Below, piece by piece: positions 1-7,276 of a DNA stretch of 11,169 bases. How positions within the stretch are numbered: position 1 is the stretch's first letter; each line of letters begins with the position of its first letter. A program made the position numbers and the translations under genes. The notes below the pieces were generated by a model. The model searched no databases. It saw only the letters and a program-made list of their open reading frames with translations, and had not been told where the DNA came from. This stretch comes from a virus. The DNA is taken from UHGV virus genome UHGV-0244975; one strand, 5' to 3'.

Positions 1-1
1 G

Positions 2-451
2 CTGGCCTGGGGAAAACAGTACGAGAACGACGCCAGAACTCTGTTTGAATTCACTTCCGGCGTGAATGTTACTGAATCCCCGATCATCTATCGCGACGAA
101 AGTATGCGCACCGCCTGCTCTCCCGATGGTTTATGCAGTGACGGCAATGGCCTTGAGCTGAAATGCCCGTTTACCTCCCGGGATTTCATGAAGTTCCGGC
201 TCGGTGGTTTCGAGGCCATAAAGTCGGCTTACATGGCCCAGGTGCAGTACAGCATGTGGGTGACGCGAAAAGATGCCTGGTACTTTGCCAACTATGACCC
301 GCGTATGAAGCGTGAAGGACTGCATTATGTCGTGGTTGAGCGGGATGAAAAGTACATGGCGAGTTTTGACGAGATGGTGCCGGAGTTCATCGAAAAAATG
401 GACGAGGCACTGGCTGAAATTGGTTTTGTATTTGGGGAGCAATGGCGATGA
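2..451 (+). CDS. exo: Lambda-type 5'-3' exonuclease (Red-alpha, YqaJ fold), C-terminal portion; 5' end lies left of the window
   Basis: The frame is open from the window edge ([23 protein letters not shown] precedes the first ATG at 62). The translation ends ...[19 protein letters not shown], which I recognise from memory as near-identical to the phage lambda Exo C-terminus. Stop TGA at 449-451. Confidence 0.85.
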
Positions 452-606
452 CGCATCCTCACGATAATATCCGGGTAGGTGCGATCACTTTCGTCTACTC
501 CGTTACAAAGCGAGGCTGGGTATTTCCCGGCCTTTCTGTTATCCAAAATCCACTGAAAGCACAGCGGCTGGCTGAGAAGATAAATAATAAACAGGAGGAT
601 ATATGA
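448..606 (+). CDS. Small hypothetical ORF (52 aa), possibly translationally coupled between exo and the DGQHR gene
   Basis: Its ATG at 448-450 overlaps the exo stop (ATGA) and its TGA at 604-606 overlaps the ATG of the next gene (ATATGA). Translation [52 protein letters not shown]. It is below the 60-aa cut-off of the ORF track and has no obvious SD of its own. Confidence 0.3.
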
Positions 607-1667
607 GTCAGGTTGGTAATCATTCATTCGAATTTCCGGCATCGCAAGGTGTACAGGGTGGTACTGTTACACTCTTCCTTACCATACCAGGAAGATCGCT
701 GGCTCGTTTCCTCGCTTCAGATAATTACGGCCATACACTGGAACGCTCTCAGCGAGAAATTAATCCAAATCGAGTACGAAAATTTTTAAATTATCTCACT
801 AACGCAGACTCAAGAAATGAGCCTTTTATCATTCCCCCTCTCGTAGGTAACTGTGATTCGAATATAGAATTTGTACCGTTTGGCAACACAAATGTTGGTA
901 TAGCCAGAATTCCCCTCGACGCCGAAATAAAACTTTTTGATGGTCAACATCGTGCAGCTGGCATTGAGATATTTTGCCGAAGTTCCCCATCAACGCTCAT
1001 GGTTCCCATGATGCTTACAATGAATCTGCCGCTAAAAACCCGGCAGCAGTTCTTTTCGGACATAAATAACAACGTTTCTAAGCCATCAGCGACCATCAAT
1101 ATGGCGTATAACGGCCGGGATGATATTGCTCAGGGAATGATATCCTTCCTGACCCAACATACTGTATTTGCCGATATAACCGATTTTGAACACAACGTAG
1201 TGCCATTAAAAAGTAATATGTGGGTGAGTTTCAAGGCACTCACTGATGCAACGTCAAAGTTCGCCAGGAACGGCAATCAACAACTTGAAATGGGATATAT
1301 AGAATCTGTCTGGGAGGCATGGATTACACTAACTCAGATTGACTCAATCCGACATGGTGTACACCACGCTACGTACAAGCGCGATTATATTCAGTTCCAT
1401 GGAGTAATGATTAACGCTTTCGGTTTTGCGGTTCAACAGATGATGGTTAATCATTCCATCGCAGAAATAACTTCTATGATCGAAAAACTATGTGCAACTA
1501 CCAGCTCTGCAGAAAGAGAGGATTTTTTTCTGATGGATAACTGGGCGGGGATCTGCACGAAAGCCAGCCAGGAAAAACTATCTGTTATTGCCAATGTGGC
1601 AGCGCAGAAAGCAGCAGCAAACAGACTGATACAAGCTTTTACCAAAGGAAGTCTGGAATTAACTTAA
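603..1667 (+). CDS. DndB-like DGQHR-domain protein (ParB/sulfiredoxin-fold), orphan
   Basis: 354-aa ORF with a strong SD (AGGAGG at 594-599) 4 nt before the ATG. The translation contains the exact signature ...AEIKLFDGQHRAAGIEIF..., the DGQHR motif that defines the DndB family. The gene is visibly AT-rich compared with flanking exo and int. Confidence 0.85.
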   Translation: MSQVGNHSFEFPASQGVQGGTVTLFLTIPGRSLARFLASDNYGHTLERSQREINPNRVRKFLNYLTNADSRNEPFIIPPLVGNCDSNIEFVPFGNTNVGIARIPLDAEIKLFDGQHRAAGIEIFCRSSPSTLMVPMMLTMNLPLKTRQQFFSDINNNVSKPSATINMAYNGRDDIAQGMISFLTQHTVFADITDFEHNVVPLKSNMWVSFKALTDATSKFARNGNQQLEMGYIESVWEAWITLTQIDSIRHGVHHATYKRDYIQFHGVMINAFGFAVQQMMVNHSIAEITSMIEKLCATTSSAEREDFFLMDNWAGICTKASQEKLSVIANVAAQKAAANRLIQAFTKGSLELT

Positions 1668-1820
1668 TGAATCAACATTGTCTCATATCAGCATGCTGTA
1701 CGGCGTCTTTAAGGAACGGTGAGCATGAAAAACAAAATCATCATGGAGCTACAGGCTCCTTTTTTATTGTTCGCATTCACCCTCAAGCGTATTAACCAAC
1801 AATTTAGGGATTAATGGAAG

Positions 1821-2039
1821 ATGGCAGACATCATTGATTCAGCATCAGAAATTGAAGAATTACAGCGCAACACAGCAATAAAAATGCACCGCCTGAACCA
1901 CCAGGCTATATCTGCCACTCATTGTTGTGAGTGTGGCGATCCGATAGATGAACTAAGACGTCTGGCCGTTCAGGGTTGTCGGACTTGTGCAAGTTGCCAG
2001 GAGGAGATCGAACTTAAGAACAAACAATGGGGATTGTGA
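1821..2039 (+). CDS. TraR/DksA-family C4-type zinc-finger protein
   Basis: 72 aa with two Cys pairs, C-C-E-C-G ... C-R-T-C-A-S-C, spaced as in TraR/DksA C4 zinc fingers, and a size typical of phage TraR-like proteins. Confidence 0.8.
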   Translation: MADIIDSASEIEELQRNTAIKMHRLNHQAISATHCCECGDPIDELRRLAVQGCRTCASCQEEIELKNKQWGL

Positions 2040-2086
2040 TGGCCTCAAAGCAGCAAATTTCAACATCGTCCAACTGAGGTGTAAAA

Positions 2087-2326
2087 ATGTTCAGAATCAT
2101 TTTTCCTAACACCTGGTACGTCGACCACCACGGCACTCCCTGCAAAATCCTGCGTTCTACCCACAACAAAGTTCACTACATCCGAAAAGGCAGAACATGT
2201 ATCGCCAGCATGTTCCGCTTTAATCATGACTTTGAACCTGTGAGTAAAGTGGAATCAGAGCGGATAGCCGAAGAGATCGATACAGCAGAACACATTAAGA
2301 AGTTACGTGCCATACGCAGGAAATAG
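2087..2326 (+). CDS. Hypothetical protein (79 aa)
   Basis: ORF in the same orientation as the surrounding operon, with GAGG 7-8 nt upstream of the ATG. No motif recognised. Confidence 0.55.
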   Translation: MFRIIFPNTWYVDHHGTPCKILRSTHNKVHYIRKGRTCIASMFRFNHDFEPVSKVESERIAEEIDTAEHIKKLRAIRRK

Positions 2327-2465
2327 AAAAATTGATAAATTCAATACTGCATTTCTCAGCATTAAATTTATCTCTATGACCAGTCAAGAGATGTACCTGC
2401 CATGAGCTTAATATCATGTCAGATATATCGGTCACAAACTCCCTCAGCAGCTAAGAGGAGGACAA

Positions 2466-2702
2466 ATGTCTCGACTAATCACTTTACAGGACTGGGCTAA
2501 AGAAGAATTTGGGGACTTAGCACCAAGTGAGCGAGTTCTGAAAAAATACGCGCAAGGGAAAATGATGGCCCCACCCGCTATAAAAGTTGGTCGCTACTGG
2601 ATGATTGACCGAAATTCCCGTTTTGTAGGAACGCTTGCAGAACCGCAACTCCCAATAAACGCAAACCCAAAACTCCAACGGATAATCGCTGATGGCTGCT
2701 AG
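2466..2702 (+). CDS. xis: Excisionase (Xis-type DNA-binding protein)
   Basis: 78 aa, preceded by a strong SD (AAGAGGAGG). The N-terminus MSRLITLQDWAKEEFG...IKVGRYWMIDRNSRF has the pattern of lambdoid excisionases. Its 3' end overlaps the int start by 11 nt, as xis-int pairs do. Confidence 0.8.
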   Translation: MSRLITLQDWAKEEFGDLAPSERVLKKYAQGKMMAPPAIKVGRYWMIDRNSRFVGTLAEPQLPINANPKLQRIIADGC

Positions 2703-3834
2703 ACCCCGATCTCACAAAATCTCTATACCCAATTTATATTGCAAATTAGATAAGCGAACCGGAAAGGTATATTGGCAATACAAACATCCACTATCCGGTC
2801 GTTTTCATAGCTTAGGAACTGATGAGAATGAAGCAAAACAAGTTGCTACTGAAGCAAATACCATTATTGCTGAACAACGTACCAGACAAATATTAAGCGT
2901 CAATGAGCGTCTGGAAAGAATGAAAGGCAGGCGCTCAGACATTACGGTGACAGAATGGCTTGATAAATATATTTCTATCCAGGAGGACAGGCTGCAACAT
3001 AATGAACTAAGACCCAACTCCTATCGGCAAAAAGGCAAACCCATTCGTCTTTTCCGTGAGCATTGTGGAATGCAACACCTCAAGGATATTACCGCACTTG
3101 ATATTGCCGAAATAATTGATGCTGTAAAGGCTGAAGGTCATAACAGGATGGCGCAAGTCGTGAGAATGGTGTTAATCGACGTCTTCAAAGAAGCACAACA
3201 CGCAGGACATGTTCCGCCAGGATTTAACCCAGCGCAGGCAACAAAACAACCGCGAAATCGAGTAAACCGCCAAAGATTATCACTGCCCGAATGGCAGGCA
3301 ATATTTGACAGCGTAAGCAGACGGCAGCCCTATTTAAAATGCGGGATGCTACTTGCTCTTGTCACTGGACAACGTTTAGGCGATATCTGCAATTTGAAAT
3401 TCTCTGATATCTGGGACGACATGTTGCACATTACTCAGGAAAAAACCGGTTCAAAACTTGCTATTCCGCTTAACCTGAAATGCGATGCTCTGAATATTAC
3501 CCTTCGTGAAGTTATATCTCAGTGCAGGGATGCTGTTGTTAGTAAATATCTGGTCCATTACCGTCACACAACCTCTCAAGCAAACAGAGGGGACCAGGTT
3601 TCTGCGAATACTCTGACAACAGCTTTTAAAAAGGCCAGGGAAAAATGTGGCATAAAATGGGAGCAAGGAACCGCGCCCACATTTCATGAGCAGCGATCTC
3701 TGTCAGAACGGTTATATCGGGAACAGGGTCTGGATACGCAAAAGTTGTTAGGTCATAAATCCAGAAAAATGACCGACCGATACAATGATGATCGTGGTAA
3801 AGACTGGGTTATCGTAGATATGAAAACAGCATAG
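2692..3834 (+). CDS. int: Tyrosine site-specific integrase, lambda Int family
   Basis: 380 aa. The N-terminus MAARPRSHKISIPNLYCKLDKRTGK parallels the lambda Int arm-binding domain, and the C-terminus carries the catalytic signature ...TFHEQRSLSERLY...LLGHKSRKMTDRYNDDRG (His-x-x-Arg ... Tyr). It reads toward the adjacent icd fragment. Confidence 0.92.
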   Translation: MAARPRSHKISIPNLYCKLDKRTGKVYWQYKHPLSGRFHSLGTDENEAKQVATEANTIIAEQRTRQILSVNERLERMKGRRSDITVTEWLDKYISIQEDRLQHNELRPNSYRQKGKPIRLFREHCGMQHLKDITALDIAEIIDAVKAEGHNRMAQVVRMVLIDVFKEAQHAGHVPPGFNPAQATKQPRNRVNRQRLSLPEWQAIFDSVSRRQPYLKCGMLLALVTGQRLGDICNLKFSDIWDDMLHITQEKTGSKLAIPLNLKCDALNITLREVISQCRDAVVSKYLVHYRHTTSQANRGDQVSANTLTTAFKKAREKCGIKWEQGTAPTFHEQRSLSERLYREQGLDTQKLLGHKSRKMTDRYNDDRGKDWVIVDMKTA

Positions 3835-3844
3835 AAAATAGCCA

Positions 3845-3881
3845 GTTTTGGGGAAGGGTTTTGGGGAAAGTTTTGGGGAAG
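3845..3881. repeat. Three tandem direct repeats GTTTTGGGGAA(A)G just 3' of int; candidate arm-type Int-binding sites (P' arm)
   Basis: Directly visible: gttttggggaag / gttttggggaaag / gttttggggaag, head to tail, 11 nt after the int stop. Lambda attP has three tandem arm-type Int sites in the equivalent position. The binding function is inferred. Confidence 0.6.
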
Positions 3882-3901
3882 ATTTTACATCATCATAAAA
3901 C

Positions 3902-3924
3902 AACGGGCGTGTTATACGCCCGTT
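3902..3924. terminator. GC-rich hairpin, candidate bidirectional rho-independent terminator (icd fragment on -, int on +)
   Basis: Perfect 9-bp inverted repeat AACGGGCGT-gttat-ACGCCCGTT. On the - strand it is followed by GTTTTAT, 24 nt after the icd-fragment stop; on the + strand by acagTTTTT. Confidence 0.5.
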
Positions 3925-3947
3925 ACAGTTTTTAACGCATGCAGAAA

Positions 3948-4112
3948 TTACATGTTCTTGATGATCGCGTCACCAAACTCTGAACATTTCAGCAGTTTAG
4001 CGCCTTCCATCAGACGTTCGAAGTCATAGGTTACAGTCTTCGCGTTGATCGCGCCTTCCATACCTTTAACAATCAGGTCTGCGGCTTCAGTCCAACCCAT
4101 ATGGCGCAGCAT
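3948..4112 (-). pseudogene. icd: Promoterless 3'-terminal fragment of the isocitrate dehydrogenase gene (54 codons plus stop): phage-borne att-associated icd segment
   Basis: The - strand translates to [54 protein letters not shown], matching the Icd C-terminus as I recall it. Homology stops abruptly at 4112 (next upstream codons are Leu then a stop), so no upstream icd body is present. Confidence 0.85.
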
Positions 4113-4345
4113 TAGTTAGATGACTAAATCGTAACTATTTGACATAGCAACATAATTTTACTAATTTGCATATAACTCATTAGCTCTTAGCATTTCTATA
4201 ACTCATTGATTATAAACATGTGTTTTTGAGTTTTGATAACCATTTTTAGCATAAAAATAGCAGTTAACATTTGCAGAAGTTAAGATCAGAGAAAATTTTT
4301 ATCCTGTAGGGTATTACGTCTTAAATGTGACTTTAATAAACAATT

Positions 4346-5179
4346 TTATTTCTGTAATCGGTTTATATTAACGTAAAGCATCTCGATTAGTTCTTTTGCA
4401 TTTTTACTATAGTGCAATTCTCTATGACAATTCGGACAAAGGGCAACACAGTTATCTGTTGTATCAGCACCACCTGAAAACAGGGGAATTACATGATGCA
4501 CTTCCAAATATGGGTTTCCATCATTTAAATAAAACGGAGCATTTTTACCACAGTTTTCACATATACCTTTACTTTGCTGTAAAATCCAAGCTTTTACCAT
4601 CGGGTCTCGGACATAAACTTTTTGTAGTCTTTCTACCTCAACTGGTTTCCTGGAGCCATCGGGTTGACTCAACGTTTTCTTAATTAATTTACTAACCCTC
4701 ATATTCAGAAGCGATTCATCATCTGTAGGCTGTGAAAGCTCTGATAGTTCTCCACGTATTATAGACGCCCAAAAACTGTCACTATAAATACCTGGAACAT
4801 TTATCAATATTCGTTTCGTTCTATTGCCGGAAGGAATTTCCTTTCTCCCCGTATGACTAAAATAAGCCTGATAACCACACATCTTCAAGCGTATATCGCG
4901 GGGGCTATTACCAATCAAAGTAAAATATTCACCAGGATGGACTTTTCTTTCATCCAAAGAATGCATATGTTTTCTGACTGATGATGACGCCAGATATACT
5001 ACGACTTGGGATACACCAGAATCAACCAACCGTTCAATGATATAATCAAGAGCGATATTGTAATCTTTGTTTCTGTCACCCGGCCCCCACGACTCAAGGA
5101 TTAGACCATAAACACCATCCTCTTCACCTATCAAACACTCTGCTTTCAGTTCAATTCCATTATTATCAAAAACATGCAT
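4346..5179 (-). CDS. mcrA: McrA, HNH endonuclease (Type IV modification-dependent restriction)
   Basis: 277 aa. The C-terminal HNH motif is explicit: CENCGKNAPFYLNDGNPYLEVHHVIPLFSGGADTTDNCVALCPNCHRELHY. The overall sequence is recognised from memory as McrA of e14. The gene is very AT-rich. Confidence 0.9.
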   Translation of the reverse strand: MHVFDNNGIELKAECLIGEEDGVYGLILESWGPGDRNKDYNIALDYIIERLVDSGVSQVVVYLASSSVRKHMHSLDERKVHPGEYFTLIGNSPRDIRLKMCGYQAYFSHTGRKEIPSGNRTKRILINVPGIYSDSFWASIIRGELSELSQPTDDESLLNMRVSKLIKKTLSQPDGSRKPVEVERLQKVYVRDPMVKAWILQQSKGICENCGKNAPFYLNDGNPYLEVHHVIPLFSGGADTTDNCVALCPNCHRELHYSKNAKELIEMLYVNINRLQK

Positions 5180-5285: not shown

Positions 5286-5840
5286 TTATTTATCCCCTGC
5301 AGGAAACCTCTTATACAAAGTTGACACACCAACATCATAGATAATCGCCACCTTCTGGCGAGGAACTCCTGATGCAATTAATCGTCCGGCCTGTGCCCAT
5401 TGTTCTGGTGTAAGTTTGGGACGACGTCCACCAATTCGTCCCTGTGCGCGAGCAGCTTCCAGTCCAGCTTTTGTTCTTTCAACAATCAGTTCACGCTCCA
5501 TTTCAGCCAGGGCACCCATCACATGAAAGAAAAAGCGCCCCATTGGGGTACTGGTATCAATTGAATCCGTCAGACTACGAAAGTTGATGCCTCGTTCGCG
5601 CAACTCCTCCACCAGCACGACAAGATGCCGCATACTGCGCCCCAGCCGGTCCAGTTTCCAGACCACCAGCGTGTCACCTGCCGATAATGTCCTGAGCAGT
5701 TTTTTCAGTCCCGGCCTTTCGGACTTTGTACCGCTTATCTTGTCTTCAAAAATCAGCTCGCATCCTGCACAGTTCAGCGCATTACGTTGTAGATCTGTGT
5801 TCTGGTCATTTGTTGACACACGTACATAGCCAATAAGCAT
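5286..5840 (-). CDS. pin: Serine DNA invertase, Pin (Hin/Gin/Cin family)
   Basis: N-terminus MLIGYVRVSTNDQNTDLQ with the catalytic Ser in the YVRVSTNDQ resolvase motif, and a C-terminal HTH. Start chosen at the internal ATG 5838-5840, preceded by AGGGAG, giving 184 aa; the 196-aa track ORF starts 12 codons upstream. Confidence 0.9.
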   Translation of the reverse strand: MLIGYVRVSTNDQNTDLQRNALNCAGCELIFEDKISGTKSERPGLKKLLRTLSAGDTLVVWKLDRLGRSMRHLVVLVEELRERGINFRSLTDSIDTSTPMGRFFFHVMGALAEMERELIVERTKAGLEAARAQGRIGGRRPKLTPEQWAQAGRLIASGVPRQKVAIIYDVGVSTLYKRFPAGDK

Positions 5841-5866
5841 GGTAGCTCTCCCTGACAAAAGCAGGA

Positions 5867-6265
5867 ATGATGCCATTTGCTCGTTATTTCTGCATTTTCA
5901 TAAACGTTGGTTTAGGAGAAGCGGCGAAAAGGGATGTGGGCACAGGAGATAATCAGATACCGGATATGGGAGCATTCGCTTCTGGTTCGGGATGGTTCAG
6001 GCTACCAGGTGGATATATTGTTCAGTTTGGCACTTTTTCAGGAAACACGACCCGCTTTATCAGTGGACACTTCCCTATACCATTCCCTAATCAGCCGATG
6101 GTTTCAGTCAGTGTTATGTCTGATGCCGTTCAGTCAGACCCGTCGAATCCTGCCCCGCAGGTTTTGTCTGTAAATTTTGAACATATCAGTAATTCAGCGT
6201 GGCGTGTGGCAACCAGTGATATCTCACAGCAATACAGATTCAGTTATATTTCGATAGGACGGTAG
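5867..6265 (+). CDS. Alternative tail-fibre C-terminal variable segment, silent in this orientation
   Basis: The frame opens at 5846 just inside the invertible segment and has no credible own start. It encodes NVGLGE at the crossover site, matching ENLGLGE of the expressed fibre, and is followed immediately by a tfa gene. Confidence 0.7.
   Translation: MMPFARYFCIFINVGLGEAAKRDVGTGDNQIPDMGAFASGSGWFRLPGGYIVQFGTFSGNTTRFISGHFPIPFPNQPMVSVSVMSDAVQSDPSNPAPQVLSVNFEHISNSAWRVATSDISQQYRFSYISIGR
5895..5920. repeat. Inversion crossover site, hix/gix/pix-like 26-bp site proximal to pin
   Basis: ttttcataaacgTTggtttaggagaa. Its reverse complement TTCTCCTAAACC-AA-CGTTTATGAAAA resembles the hix/gix half-site pattern and is an inverted copy of the site at 7717-7742. 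Confidence 0.7.
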
Positions 6266-6267
6266 AA

Positions 6268-6708
6268 ATGCAGAAATATATTTTCAGTGCCGATAAAAAT
6301 GCGTTTTTCCCTGTGGAGCTTAAAATCGCTTATCAGGAATCCGGCGAATGGCCCGATGATGGAATCGAAATTGACGACACTGTTGCTGCCGAATTTATGA
6401 AGGAAGCACCAGAAGGAAAATACAGAGGTGTCATCGACGGAATGCCTGCATGGATTGATATTCCACCGCCAACTCATGAGGAACAAATTGCCGCAGCCGA
6501 ACTGAAAAAGCAGCAATTGATTAATCAGGTCAACGAATACATAAACAGTAAGCAATGGCCTGGTAAAGCGGCGATTGGTCGCCTGAAAGGTGAGGAACTG
6601 GTGCAATATAATTTGTGGCTGGATTATCTGGACGCACTGGAACTGGTCGATACTTCCGGTGCGCCAGATATTGAATGGCCTACGCCTCCGGCAGTTCAGG
6701 CCAGATGA
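6268..6708 (+). CDS. Tail fibre assembly protein (chaperone for the silent fibre variant)
   Basis: 146 aa. The C-terminus ...[24 protein letters not shown] resembles the conserved Tfa C-terminal region. It starts 3 nt after the silent fibre segment stop. Confidence 0.8.
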   Translation: MQKYIFSADKNAFFPVELKIAYQESGEWPDDGIEIDDTVAAEFMKEAPEGKYRGVIDGMPAWIDIPPPTHEEQIAAAELKKQQLINQVNEYINSKQWPGKAAIGRLKGEELVQYNLWLDYLDALELVDTSGAPDIEWPTPPAVQAR

Positions 6709-7276
6709 CATCCGGTGCGGTGCTGGTATCTGTTGCCGTCACCGCGTCAATATAATCCAGCACAGCGTTAAGTCGGGTGTTTTCTGGCTGCGTCAGCTTC
6801 CGCCCGGCCTGTAATTTCAGTTGAATCAGACTGATGGAAGCCATTGCAGCATCAATCAGCGACTGGCGCTGTGCTTCTGCCGCTTCTACTGCGGCGCTAT
6901 GCTGTGCCTCGGTATCCGTCACCCATTTCTCACCATCCCATTTATCGTATGGCGTTAACGGTGAAAGCGTGACATAACCGTCTTTGATGGCACCGATATA
7001 ATCCACTGTAACAGCTGCACCATTTTCTGTTGAGTAAACAGTCTCATTGCGATGGTCTTCTTCATGGCTCCATCCCTTACCCGTAAATACTGCCACTTTT
7101 CCCGGAATGTTTTCGCCCGGGTCAATACCAGTGGAACAGGCGGGCATACTTACACCAGTATTAATATATTCATCAGACCAGCCCGTATATTCATACGTTA
7201 CTGCATCATAATAAAAACAACGCATATCGCCCGGCACTGTAGCCAGTCCATTTTCATCAAAAATTGGGGTCATCAT
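6680..7276 (-). CDS. Tail fibre assembly protein (for the currently expressed fibre)
   Basis: 198 aa. The C-terminus ...[24 protein letters not shown] parallels the other Tfa. Its start overlaps the tail-fibre stop (coupled). Confidence 0.8.

What the first reader, a model, noticed from the sequence alone, without database searches (positions are those of the whole stretch)
603..1667. Orphan DndB-like DGQHR-domain gene in the lambdoid exo-xis accessory slot
A 354-aa protein with the exact DGQHR signature (IKLFDGQHRAAGIEIF) sits alone between exo and the TraR-like gene. DndB proteins normally work inside multi-gene phosphorothioation or 7-deazaguanine DNA-modification clusters, and no DndA/C/D/E, DpdA or other partner is present here. 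The gene is AT-rich (about 35% GC in a sampled 60-nt line, against about 60% in the tail genes), has a strong AGGAGG SD, and occupies the hypervariable slot where lambdoid phages carry moron, defence or anti-defence cargo. It could be a single-gene anti-phage or superinfection-exclusion factor, or a phage counter-defence protein against host DNA-modification-based immunity.
Basis: partly seen in the sequence, partly recalled or inferred. Interest (0 to 1): 0.8.

Follow-up and report, generated by a model that had tools for sequence, protein, structure and literature searches.

The report
Orphan DndB-like gene in prophage
A real, well-conserved DndB-like (ParB-fold, nucleotide-binding) gene sits without any DNA-sulfur-modification partners in the early operon of an E. 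coli lambda-like prophage; it belongs to a little-studied group carried by many phages and conjugative plasmids, usually beside DNA methylases or anti-restriction genes, so it most likely helps incoming mobile DNA survive host defences, but this has never been tested.

Summary
Window 603-1667(+) encodes a 354-aa protein that passes the curated cut-offs of the DGQHR domain (TIGR03187, 188.8 vs 58.85 bits) and Pfam DndB (158 vs 29 bits). It has all three family motifs and a predicted ParB/Srx fold. It is not a true DndB (TIGR03233, 107 vs 328 bits), and no dnd or dpd gene lies nearby.

It is not a moron. It overlaps the lambda orf60a homologue (DUF1317) by ATGA, and that gene overlaps exo, so it is probably read from the pL operon. 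Its GC (42.9%) matches the surrounding early region (43.3%). The GC-rich "tail genes" belong to a second, e14-like element.

The gene is under purifying selection (dN/dS about 0.07-0.10). It occurs in 284 of 5,426 complete E. coli genomes. Homologues occur in over 200 viral contigs and 1,071 plasmid records, including the pOXA-48 leading region.

Across lineages, a DNA methyltransferase from one of seven families lies just downstream in 22 of 58 clusters, against 1 upstream. Plasmid homologues adjoin anti-restriction, PsiA and SSB genes.

Best reading (inferred, confidence about 0.4): an NTP-dependent DNA-binding factor for establishment or anti-restriction. The defence and anti-Dnd readings are less supported.

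The parts
603..1667 (+). 354-aa orphan DGQHR-domain (DndB-family, ParB/Srx-fold) protein gene
744..755 (+). R48-S-Q50-R51: the 'QR pair' motif of DGQHR domains
   Evidence: R48, Q50 and R51 are invariant or nearly so in 126 family representatives. The motif is defined in PMC4619093.
939..953 (+). D113-G-Q-H-R117 signature, the counterpart of the ParB GxxRxxA nucleotide-binding box
   Evidence: Seen. Invariant in 124-126 of 126 representatives. The analogy to the ParB box is stated in PMC10164549.
1053..1067 (+). F151-S-D-I-N155: the FxxxN motif
   Evidence: F151, D153 and N155 are invariant in 125-126 of 126 representatives.
593..598 (+). AGGAGG Shine-Dalgarno, 4 nt upstream of the ATG and inside the upstream ORF
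   Evidence: Sequence.
442..606 (+). DUF1317 gene (lambda orf60a homologue). Its stop overlaps the DGQHR start (ATGA) and its start overlaps the end of exo.
   Evidence: PF07026 106.8 bits on the near-identical copy from L001. Lambda orf60a is annotated DUF1317 and lies directly after exo. The -4 overlap with the DGQHR gene is seen in all 45 loci where DUF1317 is the upstream gene.
1..451 (+). 3' part of the lambda-type exonuclease gene (exo), cut by the window edge
   Evidence: YqaJ domain. Annotated as lambda exonuclease in near-identical prophages.
1745..1769 (+). Weak terminator-like hairpin plus T-run in the 153-nt spacer after the DGQHR gene
   Evidence: Consensus scan only: 6-bp stem, GGAGCTACAGGCTCC followed by TTTTTTATTG. 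Function not shown.
1821..2039 (+). TraR/DksA-type zinc-finger gene, the next gene in the operon
   Evidence: PF01258 and TIGR02419. It follows the DGQHR gene in nearly all of the near-identical copies.
2087..2326 (+). DUF4222 gene
   Evidence: PF13973 69.6 bits.
2466..3834 (+). xis (2466-2702) and lambda-type integrase (2692-3834), the end of the prophage. It is followed by the icd 3' fragment (3948-4112, minus strand) that marks the attachment site.
   Evidence: Exc, Arm-DNA-bind_1 and Phage_integrase domains. Iso_dh C-terminus. The same prophage is integrated in icd in strain AVS0747.

Best explanation
The gene encodes a stand-alone member of a mobile-element branch of the DGQHR/DndB family. 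The protein has an N-terminal ParB/Srx-type nucleotide-binding domain and a helical C-terminal domain.

Expression (inferred). It is made early after infection or induction, as part of the pL (gam-bet-exo-orf60a) transcript, and not from the lysogen.

Most likely function (inferred from context and from DndB/DpdB biochemistry, not shown). It binds DNA in an NTP-dependent way and helps the incoming or replicating element escape host restriction. The leading candidate mechanism is promoting or tuning DNA modification by methyltransferases. That would parallel the ParB-like ATPase DpdB, which is required for DpdA to modify DNA, and the ParB-methylase fusions of phages.

This E. coli lineage has no methylase in cis. 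Here the protein would have to act with host methylases or through a methylase-independent anti-restriction or establishment activity.
For: Shown:
- Family membership and intact motifs.
- ParB/Srx fold.
- Strong purifying selection.
- ATGA coupling to orf60a and exo, with no promoter-like site upstream.
- The same exo-DUF1317-DGQHR-TraR module in prophages with different integrases and attachment sites.

Context:
- In 206 loci, a DNA methyltransferase lies within 2.5 kb downstream on the same strand in 22 of 58 lineages (95% clusters), 14 of 35 (80%) and 7 of 20 (60%). Only 1 lineage has one upstream in each case.
- Seven methyltransferase families are involved: MT-A70, Dam, D12, N6_N4, two C5 types and DUF4942.
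- The methylase often overlaps the DGQHR gene by 4 nt.

Plasmid homologues (37-42% identity, 1,071 records, 885 of them conjugative):
- In the IncL/M pOXA-48 leading region, among RadC/JAB, DUF4942, Hha, an antirestriction gene and ssb, all transcribed towards mobA and the relaxase gene.
- Immediately upstream of an antirestriction gene and ardR in an IncN-like plasmid.
- Next to psiA and an antirestriction gene in Buttiauxella and Dryocola elements.

Precedents:
- DpdB ATPase is needed for DpdA-dependent DNA modification, without a stable complex (PMC10164549).
- A bacterial DndB-like protein binds ATP and GTP, and phage ParB-fold proteins are often fused to methylases (bioRxiv 10.1101/2025.10.10.680097).
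- Leading regions are enriched in anti-defence genes and orphan methylases (PMC11541004).
Against: - There is no experimental data for any member of this branch.
- The window's own lineage (33 loci at about 99% identity or more) never has a methylase nearby. The rest of a near-identical prophage has none either. The methylase-helper idea therefore cannot be applied directly to this gene.
- Methylase adjacency could simply reflect a shared cargo slot near int. Four-nucleotide overlaps are common in phage operons. I ran no control for how often methylases occupy this slot in phages that lack the gene.
- Closely related DGQHR proteins sit next to four different methylase families. That argues against a specific protein-protein partnership.
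- The pOXA-48 homologue is split by IS1 in many successful plasmids, so it is dispensable there.
- The only characterised close relative, DndB, is a transcriptional repressor.
Confidence: 0.4

Rival explanations
1. It is a DndB/KorB-like transcriptional regulator. An NTP-modulated DNA-binding repressor or silencer would tune expression of phage exo-xis or early genes, or of host genes. This would be comparable to how other lambda exo-xis genes influence the lysis-lysogeny decision.
For: - The closest characterised relative, DndB, binds the dnd promoter and represses the operon (PMC4507180).
- KorB is among the top structural neighbours.
- The next gene is a TraR/DksA-type RNA polymerase regulator, so the slot does carry regulators.
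- A role in this lineage without a methylase would be explained.
Against: - No HTH domain is detected.
- The gene lies inside a long operon without an adjacent promoter to regulate.
- The neighbours are highly variable across 206 loci, so there is no conserved cis target.
- A dedicated regulator does not explain the recurrent methylase and anti-restriction neighbourhoods in unrelated phage and plasmid backbones.
Confidence: 0.2
2. It is a single-gene anti-phage defence or superinfection-exclusion factor carried as prophage cargo. The DGQHR NTPase would sense foreign or modified DNA, as the related DUF262 domains of SspE, BrxU and DndI do.
For: - The fold is shared with the sensor NTPase domains of SspE, BrxU and DndI.
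- The exo-xis region is a variable accessory slot.
- A weak terminator-like hairpin follows the gene.
- The gene is present in 5% of E. coli genomes.
Against: - There is no nuclease or other effector domain. The EH dipeptide at residues 196-197 is not conserved across the family.
- No promoter of its own was found. The gene appears translationally coupled to exo-orf60a, so it is expected to be silent in the lysogen.
- It matches no PADLOC model other than DndB.
- Homologues sit in plasmid leading regions, which carry counter-defence rather than defence functions (PMC11541004).
Confidence: 0.12
3. It is a specific counter-defence against modification-based immunity (Dnd, Ssp or Dpd). It would act as a decoy of the host DndB/DpdB-type component or interfere with it.
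For: Homology to DndB runs along most of the length (PADLOC DndB 126 bits, residues 7-299). Mimicry of host components is a known phage strategy (general knowledge).
Against: - The protein is only distantly related to true DndB (TIGR03233 107 vs 328 bits).
- There is no hit to DpdB models.
- The branch is spread over many Enterobacterales, Vibrio and Shewanella phages and broad-host-range plasmids. That fits a general rather than a system-specific role.
- No co-occurrence data were obtained.
Confidence: 0.08

Closest known systems
DndB (DptB) of the dndBCDE phosphorothioation operon (TIGR03233; Pfam PF14072)
   Same: - Same Pfam family, with homology over about 285-300 residues.
- Same three motifs: QR pair, DGQHR and FxxxN.
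- Similar length, about 355 aa.
- ParB/Srx-type N-terminal domain followed by a helical C-terminal domain.
   Different: - Scores 107 bits against the 328-bit equivalog cut-off.
- No dndA/C/D/E genes nearby.
- Encoded in a phage early operon rather than divergently from a modification operon.
- Relatives annotated 'DndB' on plasmids are only 24-33% identical. The one whose neighbourhood I read (Vibrio plasmid) has no dndCDE nearby.
DpdB, the ParB-like ATPase of the Dpd 7-deazaguanine DNA modification system
   Same: - ParB/Srx-fold protein of similar size.
- Acts together with a DNA-modifying enzyme without forming a stable complex with it.
   Different: - DpdB has DGQQR rather than DGQHR.
- The PADLOC DpdB models do not match this protein.
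- No DpdA/TGT gene is nearby.
- The partner enzymes in related phages are methyltransferases, and this lineage has none.
ParB-fold/DNA-methyltransferase fusion proteins of phages and plasmid leading regions
   Same: A ParB-superfamily NTP-binding module is associated with orphan methylases on mobile elements. Those elements express it early on entry.
   Different: - Here the ParB-like module is a separate protein from a different branch (DGQHR, not PF02195).
- The association is by gene neighbourhood only.
- The association is absent in the window's own lineage.
DUF262 (GmrS-like) sensor NTPase domains of SspE, BrxU/GmrSD and DndI
   Different: - No DUF1524/HNH nuclease domain.
- Belongs to a different Pfam family.
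- Carried by the invading element rather than by a host defence island.
Lambda exo-xis region genes (orf60a, orf63, orf61, orf73, ea22) and restriction-alleviation genes of pL operons (lambda ral, Rac lar)
   Same: Same genomic slot and the same expected expression as a delayed-early pL gene. The ral and lar precedent, recalled from memory, shows that such operons carry modification-enhancing anti-restriction genes.
   Different: No sequence relationship to any of them. It replaces orf63 and orf61 rather than resembling them.

Membership tests
DGQHR domain / Pfam DndB superfamily (TIGR03187, PF14072) | Score above the curated HMM cut-offs | tested here: met
   TIGR03187 188.8 bits vs 58.85. 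PF14072 158.2 bits vs 29.1.
DGQHR domain / Pfam DndB superfamily (TIGR03187, PF14072) | QR pair, DGQHR pentapeptide and FxxxN motif | tested here: met
   R48-S-Q50-R51, D113-R117 and F151-N155 are all present. They are invariant across the phage branch and across 126 family representatives.
DGQHR domain / Pfam DndB superfamily (TIGR03187, PF14072) | ParB/sulfiredoxin-type fold in the N-terminal domain | tested here: met
DndB proper (regulator of the dnd phosphorothioation operon) | Equivalog-level similarity (TIGR03233, at least 328 bits) | tested here: not met
   106.9 bits.
DndB proper (regulator of the dnd phosphorothioation operon) | Encoded next to dndCDE (and dndA) | tested here: not met
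   None in the window. None in the rest of a near-identical prophage. None among the recurrent neighbour families that I annotated across the 206 related loci; many singleton neighbours were left unannotated.
DndB proper (regulator of the dnd phosphorothioation operon) | ATP-modulated binding to the dnd promoter | not testable with these tools
   Requires biochemistry.
DpdB (Dpd system ATPase) | Match to DpdB models and a neighbouring DpdA (TGT-like) gene | tested here: not met
   The only PADLOC hit at E<=0.01 is DndB. No TGT-like gene is in the window.
GmrSD / SspE / BrxU type (DUF262 + DUF1524) restriction enzymes | C-terminal HNH/DUF1524 nuclease domain | tested here: not met
   No nuclease domain in Pfam or PADLOC. 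H197 of the local 'EH' dipeptide is replaced by R/K in most of the family.
Partition ParB | ParBc/HTH_ParB domains and a parA/parS partner | tested here: not met
   No PF02195 or PF17762 hit. No parA gene in the window.
Moron (autonomously expressed prophage cargo) | Own promoter and terminator, with atypical base composition | tested here: not met
   No promoter-like site upstream on the + strand, and ATGA overlaps with the upstream genes. GC equals that of the surrounding region. Only a weak terminator-like hairpin lies downstream.
Leading-region / early-operon establishment (anti-defence) genes of mobile elements | Homologues located in plasmid leading regions or phage early operons beside known anti-restriction or anti-SOS genes | tested here: met
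   pOXA-48 family, an IncN-like plasmid, and psiA/antirestriction loci. Methylase downstream in 22 of 58 lineages. This holds for homologues at 30-74% identity, not for the window's own lineage.
Leading-region / early-operon establishment (anti-defence) genes of mobile elements | Demonstrated inhibition or evasion of a host defence | not testable with these tools
   No publication on this branch was found.

The most novel reading that the evidence does not exclude
The protein is a stand-alone, NTP-gated DNA clamp that phages and conjugative plasmids deploy in the first minutes after entry. It would make their DNA a better substrate for whatever methyltransferase is at hand, host or element-encoded. 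Alternatively it would act as a roadblock to DNA-scanning defences. Either way it would be a generic 'modification accelerator / anti-restriction' factor, functionally akin to lambda Ral but built on the DndB/ParB fold. That would also reinterpret DndB and DpdB as members of one class of helper NTPases for DNA-modifying enzymes.
Probability: 0.2. Interest if true: 0.8.

Novelty: new variant of a known kind. Interest (0 to 1): 0.55.

Why it matters
DGQHR/DndB proteins are thought of as components of phosphorothioation and 7-deazaguanine clusters. This gene belongs to a large branch that is carried only by mobile elements and has no such partners:
- about 5% of complete E. coli genomes;
- more than 200 viral contigs;
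- more than 1,000 plasmid records, including the pOXA-48 carbapenemase plasmids.

No published function was found for this branch in the literature searched. Its neighbourhoods point to early protection of incoming DNA.

If that is right, it would add a new protein class to the anti-restriction repertoire of phages and resistance plasmids. It would also give a simple, genetically tractable model (a lambda-type prophage in E. coli) for what DndB/DpdB-type NTPases actually do on DNA.

Tried and rejected
- Sequence search of the PDB: nothing beyond a chance hit.
- Megablast against deposited phage genomes: no near-identical phage. Only protein-level relatives were found.
- Rfam scan of the window: no RNA family.
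- Literature: searches for DGQHR, DndB-like, PF14072, DndB with prophage or anti-defence, pOXA-48 with DndB, and leading region with DndB found no functional study of phage or plasmid DGQHR proteins. The main text of the pOXA-48 Tn-seq paper does not mention the gene. The Samuel & Burstein supplement lists DGQHR only as a 7-member family.
- A His-Me (HNH-like) nuclease motif around D194-F-E-H-N-V-V-P201: considered and rejected, because H197 is not conserved outside the phage branch.
- 'Recent fragment of a dnd operon': rejected. The gene is full length, has dN/dS about 0.07-0.10, and has conserved homologues in 58 lineages.
- 'AT-rich foreign moron': rejected on GC and operon structure.
- The small Myb/SANT-like repeat proteins (my cluster c79) that flank the gene in Salmonella-type phages were examined. 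They are absent from the window and were not pursued.
Full report
**What is in the window**

The left 3.8 kb is the end of the early-left (pL-type) operon of a lambda-like prophage. In order it holds:
- the 3' part of exo (to 451);
- a 54-aa DUF1317 gene (442-606);
- the 354-aa ORF in question (603-1667);
- a TraR/DksA-type zinc-finger gene (1821-2039);
- a DUF4222 gene (2087-2326);
- xis (2466-2702) and a lambda-type integrase (2692-3834).

A 54-codon fragment of icd follows (3948-4112, minus strand), so this is the phage-21/e14-type attachment site. Beyond it lies a second, e14-like element. That element carries mcrA, the pin invertase, invertible tail-fibre segments and Mu-like baseplate genes. 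A near-identical prophage integrated in icd, but without the e14 neighbour, is present in E. coli AVS0747.

**Checking the observation**

The ORF, its coordinates and the quoted peptide are correct. The family assignment is far beyond chance:
- TIGR03187 (DGQHR domain) 188.8 bits against a cut-off of 58.85;
- Pfam DndB 158.2 bits against 29.1;
- PADLOC DndB 126 bits;
- a full-length match to PHROG 7901, a phage family of unknown function.

All three motifs that define DGQHR domains (PMC4619093) are present: R48-S-Q-R51, D113-G-Q-H-R117 and F151-x-D-x-N155. They are invariant both in the phage branch and in 126 representatives of the wider family.

The AGGAGG box is at 593-598. No dnd or dpd gene is in the window or in the remaining 20 kb of the near-identical prophage.

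1. The gene is not directly next to exo. The lambda orf60a homologue (DUF1317) lies between them. It overlaps exo at its start, and its stop overlaps the DGQHR start codon (ATGA).
2. The gene is not unusually AT-rich. It is 42.9% GC, against 43.3% for the whole 600-3834 region.
3. The GC-rich 'tail genes' used for contrast belong to the other prophage-like element.

With no promoter-like site upstream, the gene is best read as an integral delayed-early gene of the pL operon, not a moron. Only a weak terminator-like hairpin (1745-1759) follows it.

**Is it a functional gene?**

Yes.
- Against a 73%-identical homologue, dN/dS is 0.07-0.10.
- Against 62-66% homologues, dS is saturated while dN is 0.25-0.31. 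Among near-identical copies there are 17 synonymous and 6 non-synonymous variant codons.
- Twenty-two diverged homologues align end to end, with 65% mean column identity.

**Distribution**

- *E. coli.* The gene is in 284 of 5,426 complete genomes, always at 99% identity or more. It sits in the same bet-exo-DUF1317-DGQHR-TraR module, joined to different integration modules such as icd and argU/intD.
- *Other Enterobacterales.* Homologues at 53-73% identity occur throughout the order. They are also in isolated temperate phages: Salmonella SPN1S and SPC32H, and Klebsiella ST101-KPC2phi6.3.
- *More distant hosts.* Homologues at 30-40% identity occur in Vibrio, Shewanella and Rheinheimera phages and prophages.
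- *Viral contigs.* IMG/VR holds more than 200 contigs encoding relatives.
- *Plasmids.* 1,071 plasmid records, 885 of them conjugative, carry a homologue at about 37-42% identity.
- *Size of the wider family.* A search of 1.84 billion cluster representatives found 586 with E<=1e-3 and 42 with E<=1e-30.

**Genomic context as the main functional evidence**

I called ORFs in 206 related loci and clustered the neighbours. The neighbours are very variable, so there is no fixed multi-gene system. Two regularities stand out.

First, a DNA methyltransferase lies within 2.5 kb downstream on the same strand far more often than upstream.

| DGQHR clustering level | Lineages with methylase downstream | Lineages with methylase upstream |
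|---|---|---|
| 95% identity | 22 of 58 | 1 |
| 80% identity | 14 of 35 | 1 |
| 60% identity | 7 of 20 | 1 |

- In the first 129 loci, at 90% clustering, the counts were 14 downstream and 1 upstream (two-sided sign test p about 0.001).
- Seven different methylase families are involved: MT-A70, Dam-PF05869, D12, N6_N4, two C5 groups and DUF4942.
- In the MT-A70, Dam and D12 cases the methylase often overlaps the DGQHR stop by 4 nt.

Second, the plasmid homologues sit in leading or establishment regions.
- In IncL/M pOXA-48-type plasmids the gene lies among RadC/JAB, DUF4942, Hha, DUF1380, an antirestriction gene and ssb. All are transcribed towards mobA and the relaxase gene. DUF4942 is labelled a putative methylase in the supplement of PMC11541004.
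- In an IncN-like plasmid it is immediately upstream of an antirestriction gene and ardR.
- In Buttiauxella and Dryocola elements it is followed by psiA and an antirestriction gene.
- Leading regions are known to concentrate anti-defence genes and orphan methylases (PMC11541004; PMC7736820).

The important caveat is the window's own lineage. Its 33 loci never have a methylase nearby, and the rest of a near-identical prophage has none either. I could not run a control for how often methylases occupy this slot in phages without the gene. Four-nucleotide overlaps are common in phage operons generally.

**Mechanism**

Shown or directly supported:
- a ParB/Srx-type fold with the nucleotide-binding signature intact;
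- apparent translational coupling to exo and orf60a.

Inferred from relatives: NTP binding or hydrolysis coupled to DNA binding.
- DndB is an ATP-modulated DNA-binding repressor (PMC4507180, and Xia et al. 2019 as cited).
- A bacterial DndB-like protein binds ATP and GTP (bioRxiv 10.1101/2025.10.10.680097).
- DpdB is a ParB-like ATPase without which DpdA cannot insert preQ0 into DNA. The two proteins form no stable complex (PMC10164549).

The DpdB case and the widespread ParB-methylase fusions of phages give a coherent picture. In it, this class of NTPase helps DNA-modifying enzymes act on DNA. The methylase neighbourhoods fit that picture. So does the observation that closely related DGQHR proteins pair with four different methylase families: that suggests functional rather than physical coupling.

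For the window gene, which has no methylase in cis, two possibilities remain. It may act with host methylases, as lambda Ral does with EcoKI (recalled from memory). Or it may have a methylase-independent role in early DNA protection. I put this family of explanations at about 0.4.

**Rivals**

- *Regulator, DndB- or KorB-like (0.2).* This fits the closest characterised relative and does not need a methylase. But there is no HTH domain, no adjacent promoter and no conserved cis neighbour.
- *Lysogen-protecting defence or exclusion factor (0.12).* The fold is shared with SspE, BrxU and DndI sensors. But there is no effector domain and no promoter of the gene's own, and relatives sit in plasmid leading regions.
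- *Specific anti-Dnd, anti-Ssp or anti-Dpd decoy (0.08).* Nothing beyond homology supports this.
- *Decaying fragment.* Excluded by the selection data.

**Comparison with known families**

It is a member of the DGQHR/DndB superfamily, since all tested criteria are met. It is not DndB proper: it scores 107 bits against 328, and there is no dnd operon. It is also not DpdB, a GmrSD-type enzyme or a partition ParB. RefSeq already annotates it 'DGQHR domain-containing protein', and PHROGs lists the family as unknown function.

No paper in the searched library addresses phage or plasmid DGQHR proteins. The gene as such is therefore catalogued. What appears undescribed is the existence of a mobile-element-only orphan branch with methylase and anti-restriction neighbourhoods.

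**Verdict**

This is a real feature and a new variant of a known kind. It is a good, testable candidate for an establishment or anti-restriction factor shared by temperate phages and clinically important plasmids. The mechanism is still inferential, and the strongest contextual clue (methylase linkage) is absent from the lineage in this window. Interest 0.55.

Noticed in passing
window 3834-5179: Two mobile elements appear to sit in tandem at the icd attachment site. The lambdoid int (2692-3834) is followed by a 54-codon icd 3' fragment (3948-4112, minus strand). Next comes the e14-type type IV restriction gene mcrA (4346-5179, minus strand; PADLOC mREase_IV 658 bits). A bidirectional terminator-like hairpin lies at 3900-3926.
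   Followed up: partly
window 5286-7276: The pin-type serine invertase (5286-5876, minus strand) lies next to oppositely oriented tail-fibre C-terminal and tail-fibre-assembly genes (5867-6265 +, 6268-6708 +, 6680-7276 -). This resembles an e14/Mu-style invertible host-range segment. I did not search for the inverted repeats.
   Followed up: no
plasmid hits H81-H96, e.g. NZ_CP068318.1 30197-31929: In the ~63.5-65.5 kb pOXA-48 variants listed, the DGQHR homologue is split by an IS1 insertion. It is intact in the 61,881-bp plasmid NZ_MK249859.1. The gene is therefore dispensable for plasmid success in the clinic, and these variants form a natural knockout series.
   Followed up: partly
L129 16279-17903 (E. 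coli AVS0747 prophage): Between the cI-like repressor and kil, the near-identical prophage carries a two-gene insert: a 273-aa hypothetical protein plus a DUF3037 protein. This is a candidate lysogen-expressed cargo or defence pair in the position of lambda rexAB. It lies outside the window.
   Followed up: no
L003, L008, L009, L086-L117 (phage loci): In Salmonella and Enterobacter-type phages the DGQHR gene is often flanked by small proteins made of Myb/SANT-like 'W..E...L' HTH repeats (my cluster c79, 50-180 aa). One of them typically sits between the DGQHR gene and the methylase. This may be a third member of a DGQHR-HTH-methylase module.
   Followed up: partly
L006 (JAEWTL010000063.1, 'MAG: Bacillota bacterium'): A 5.5-kb contig binned as Bacillota carries the bet-exo-DUF1317-DGQHR-TraR-int module. 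Its DGQHR protein is 99.7% identical to the E. coli one. This is almost certainly a mis-binned E. coli prophage fragment.
   Followed up: no
L131 (Vibrio mediterranei plasmid NZ_CP033579.1) 8001-14836: A 458-aa protein annotated 'DndB' has no dndCDE nearby. It lies just upstream of a CBASS-like operon (nucleotidyltransferase, ThiF/E1, JAB, SAVED) and radC. Database 'DndB' labels on plasmids should not be read as evidence of a dnd system.
   Followed up: partly
window 1667-1795: A 42-codon ORF starts at the DGQHR stop codon (ATGA again) and is conserved in the near-identical copies (my cluster k9, 33 loci). It overlaps the terminator-like hairpin at 1745-1759. It could be a real small gene or just conserved spacer sequence. 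It is not annotated in RefSeq.
   Followed up: no
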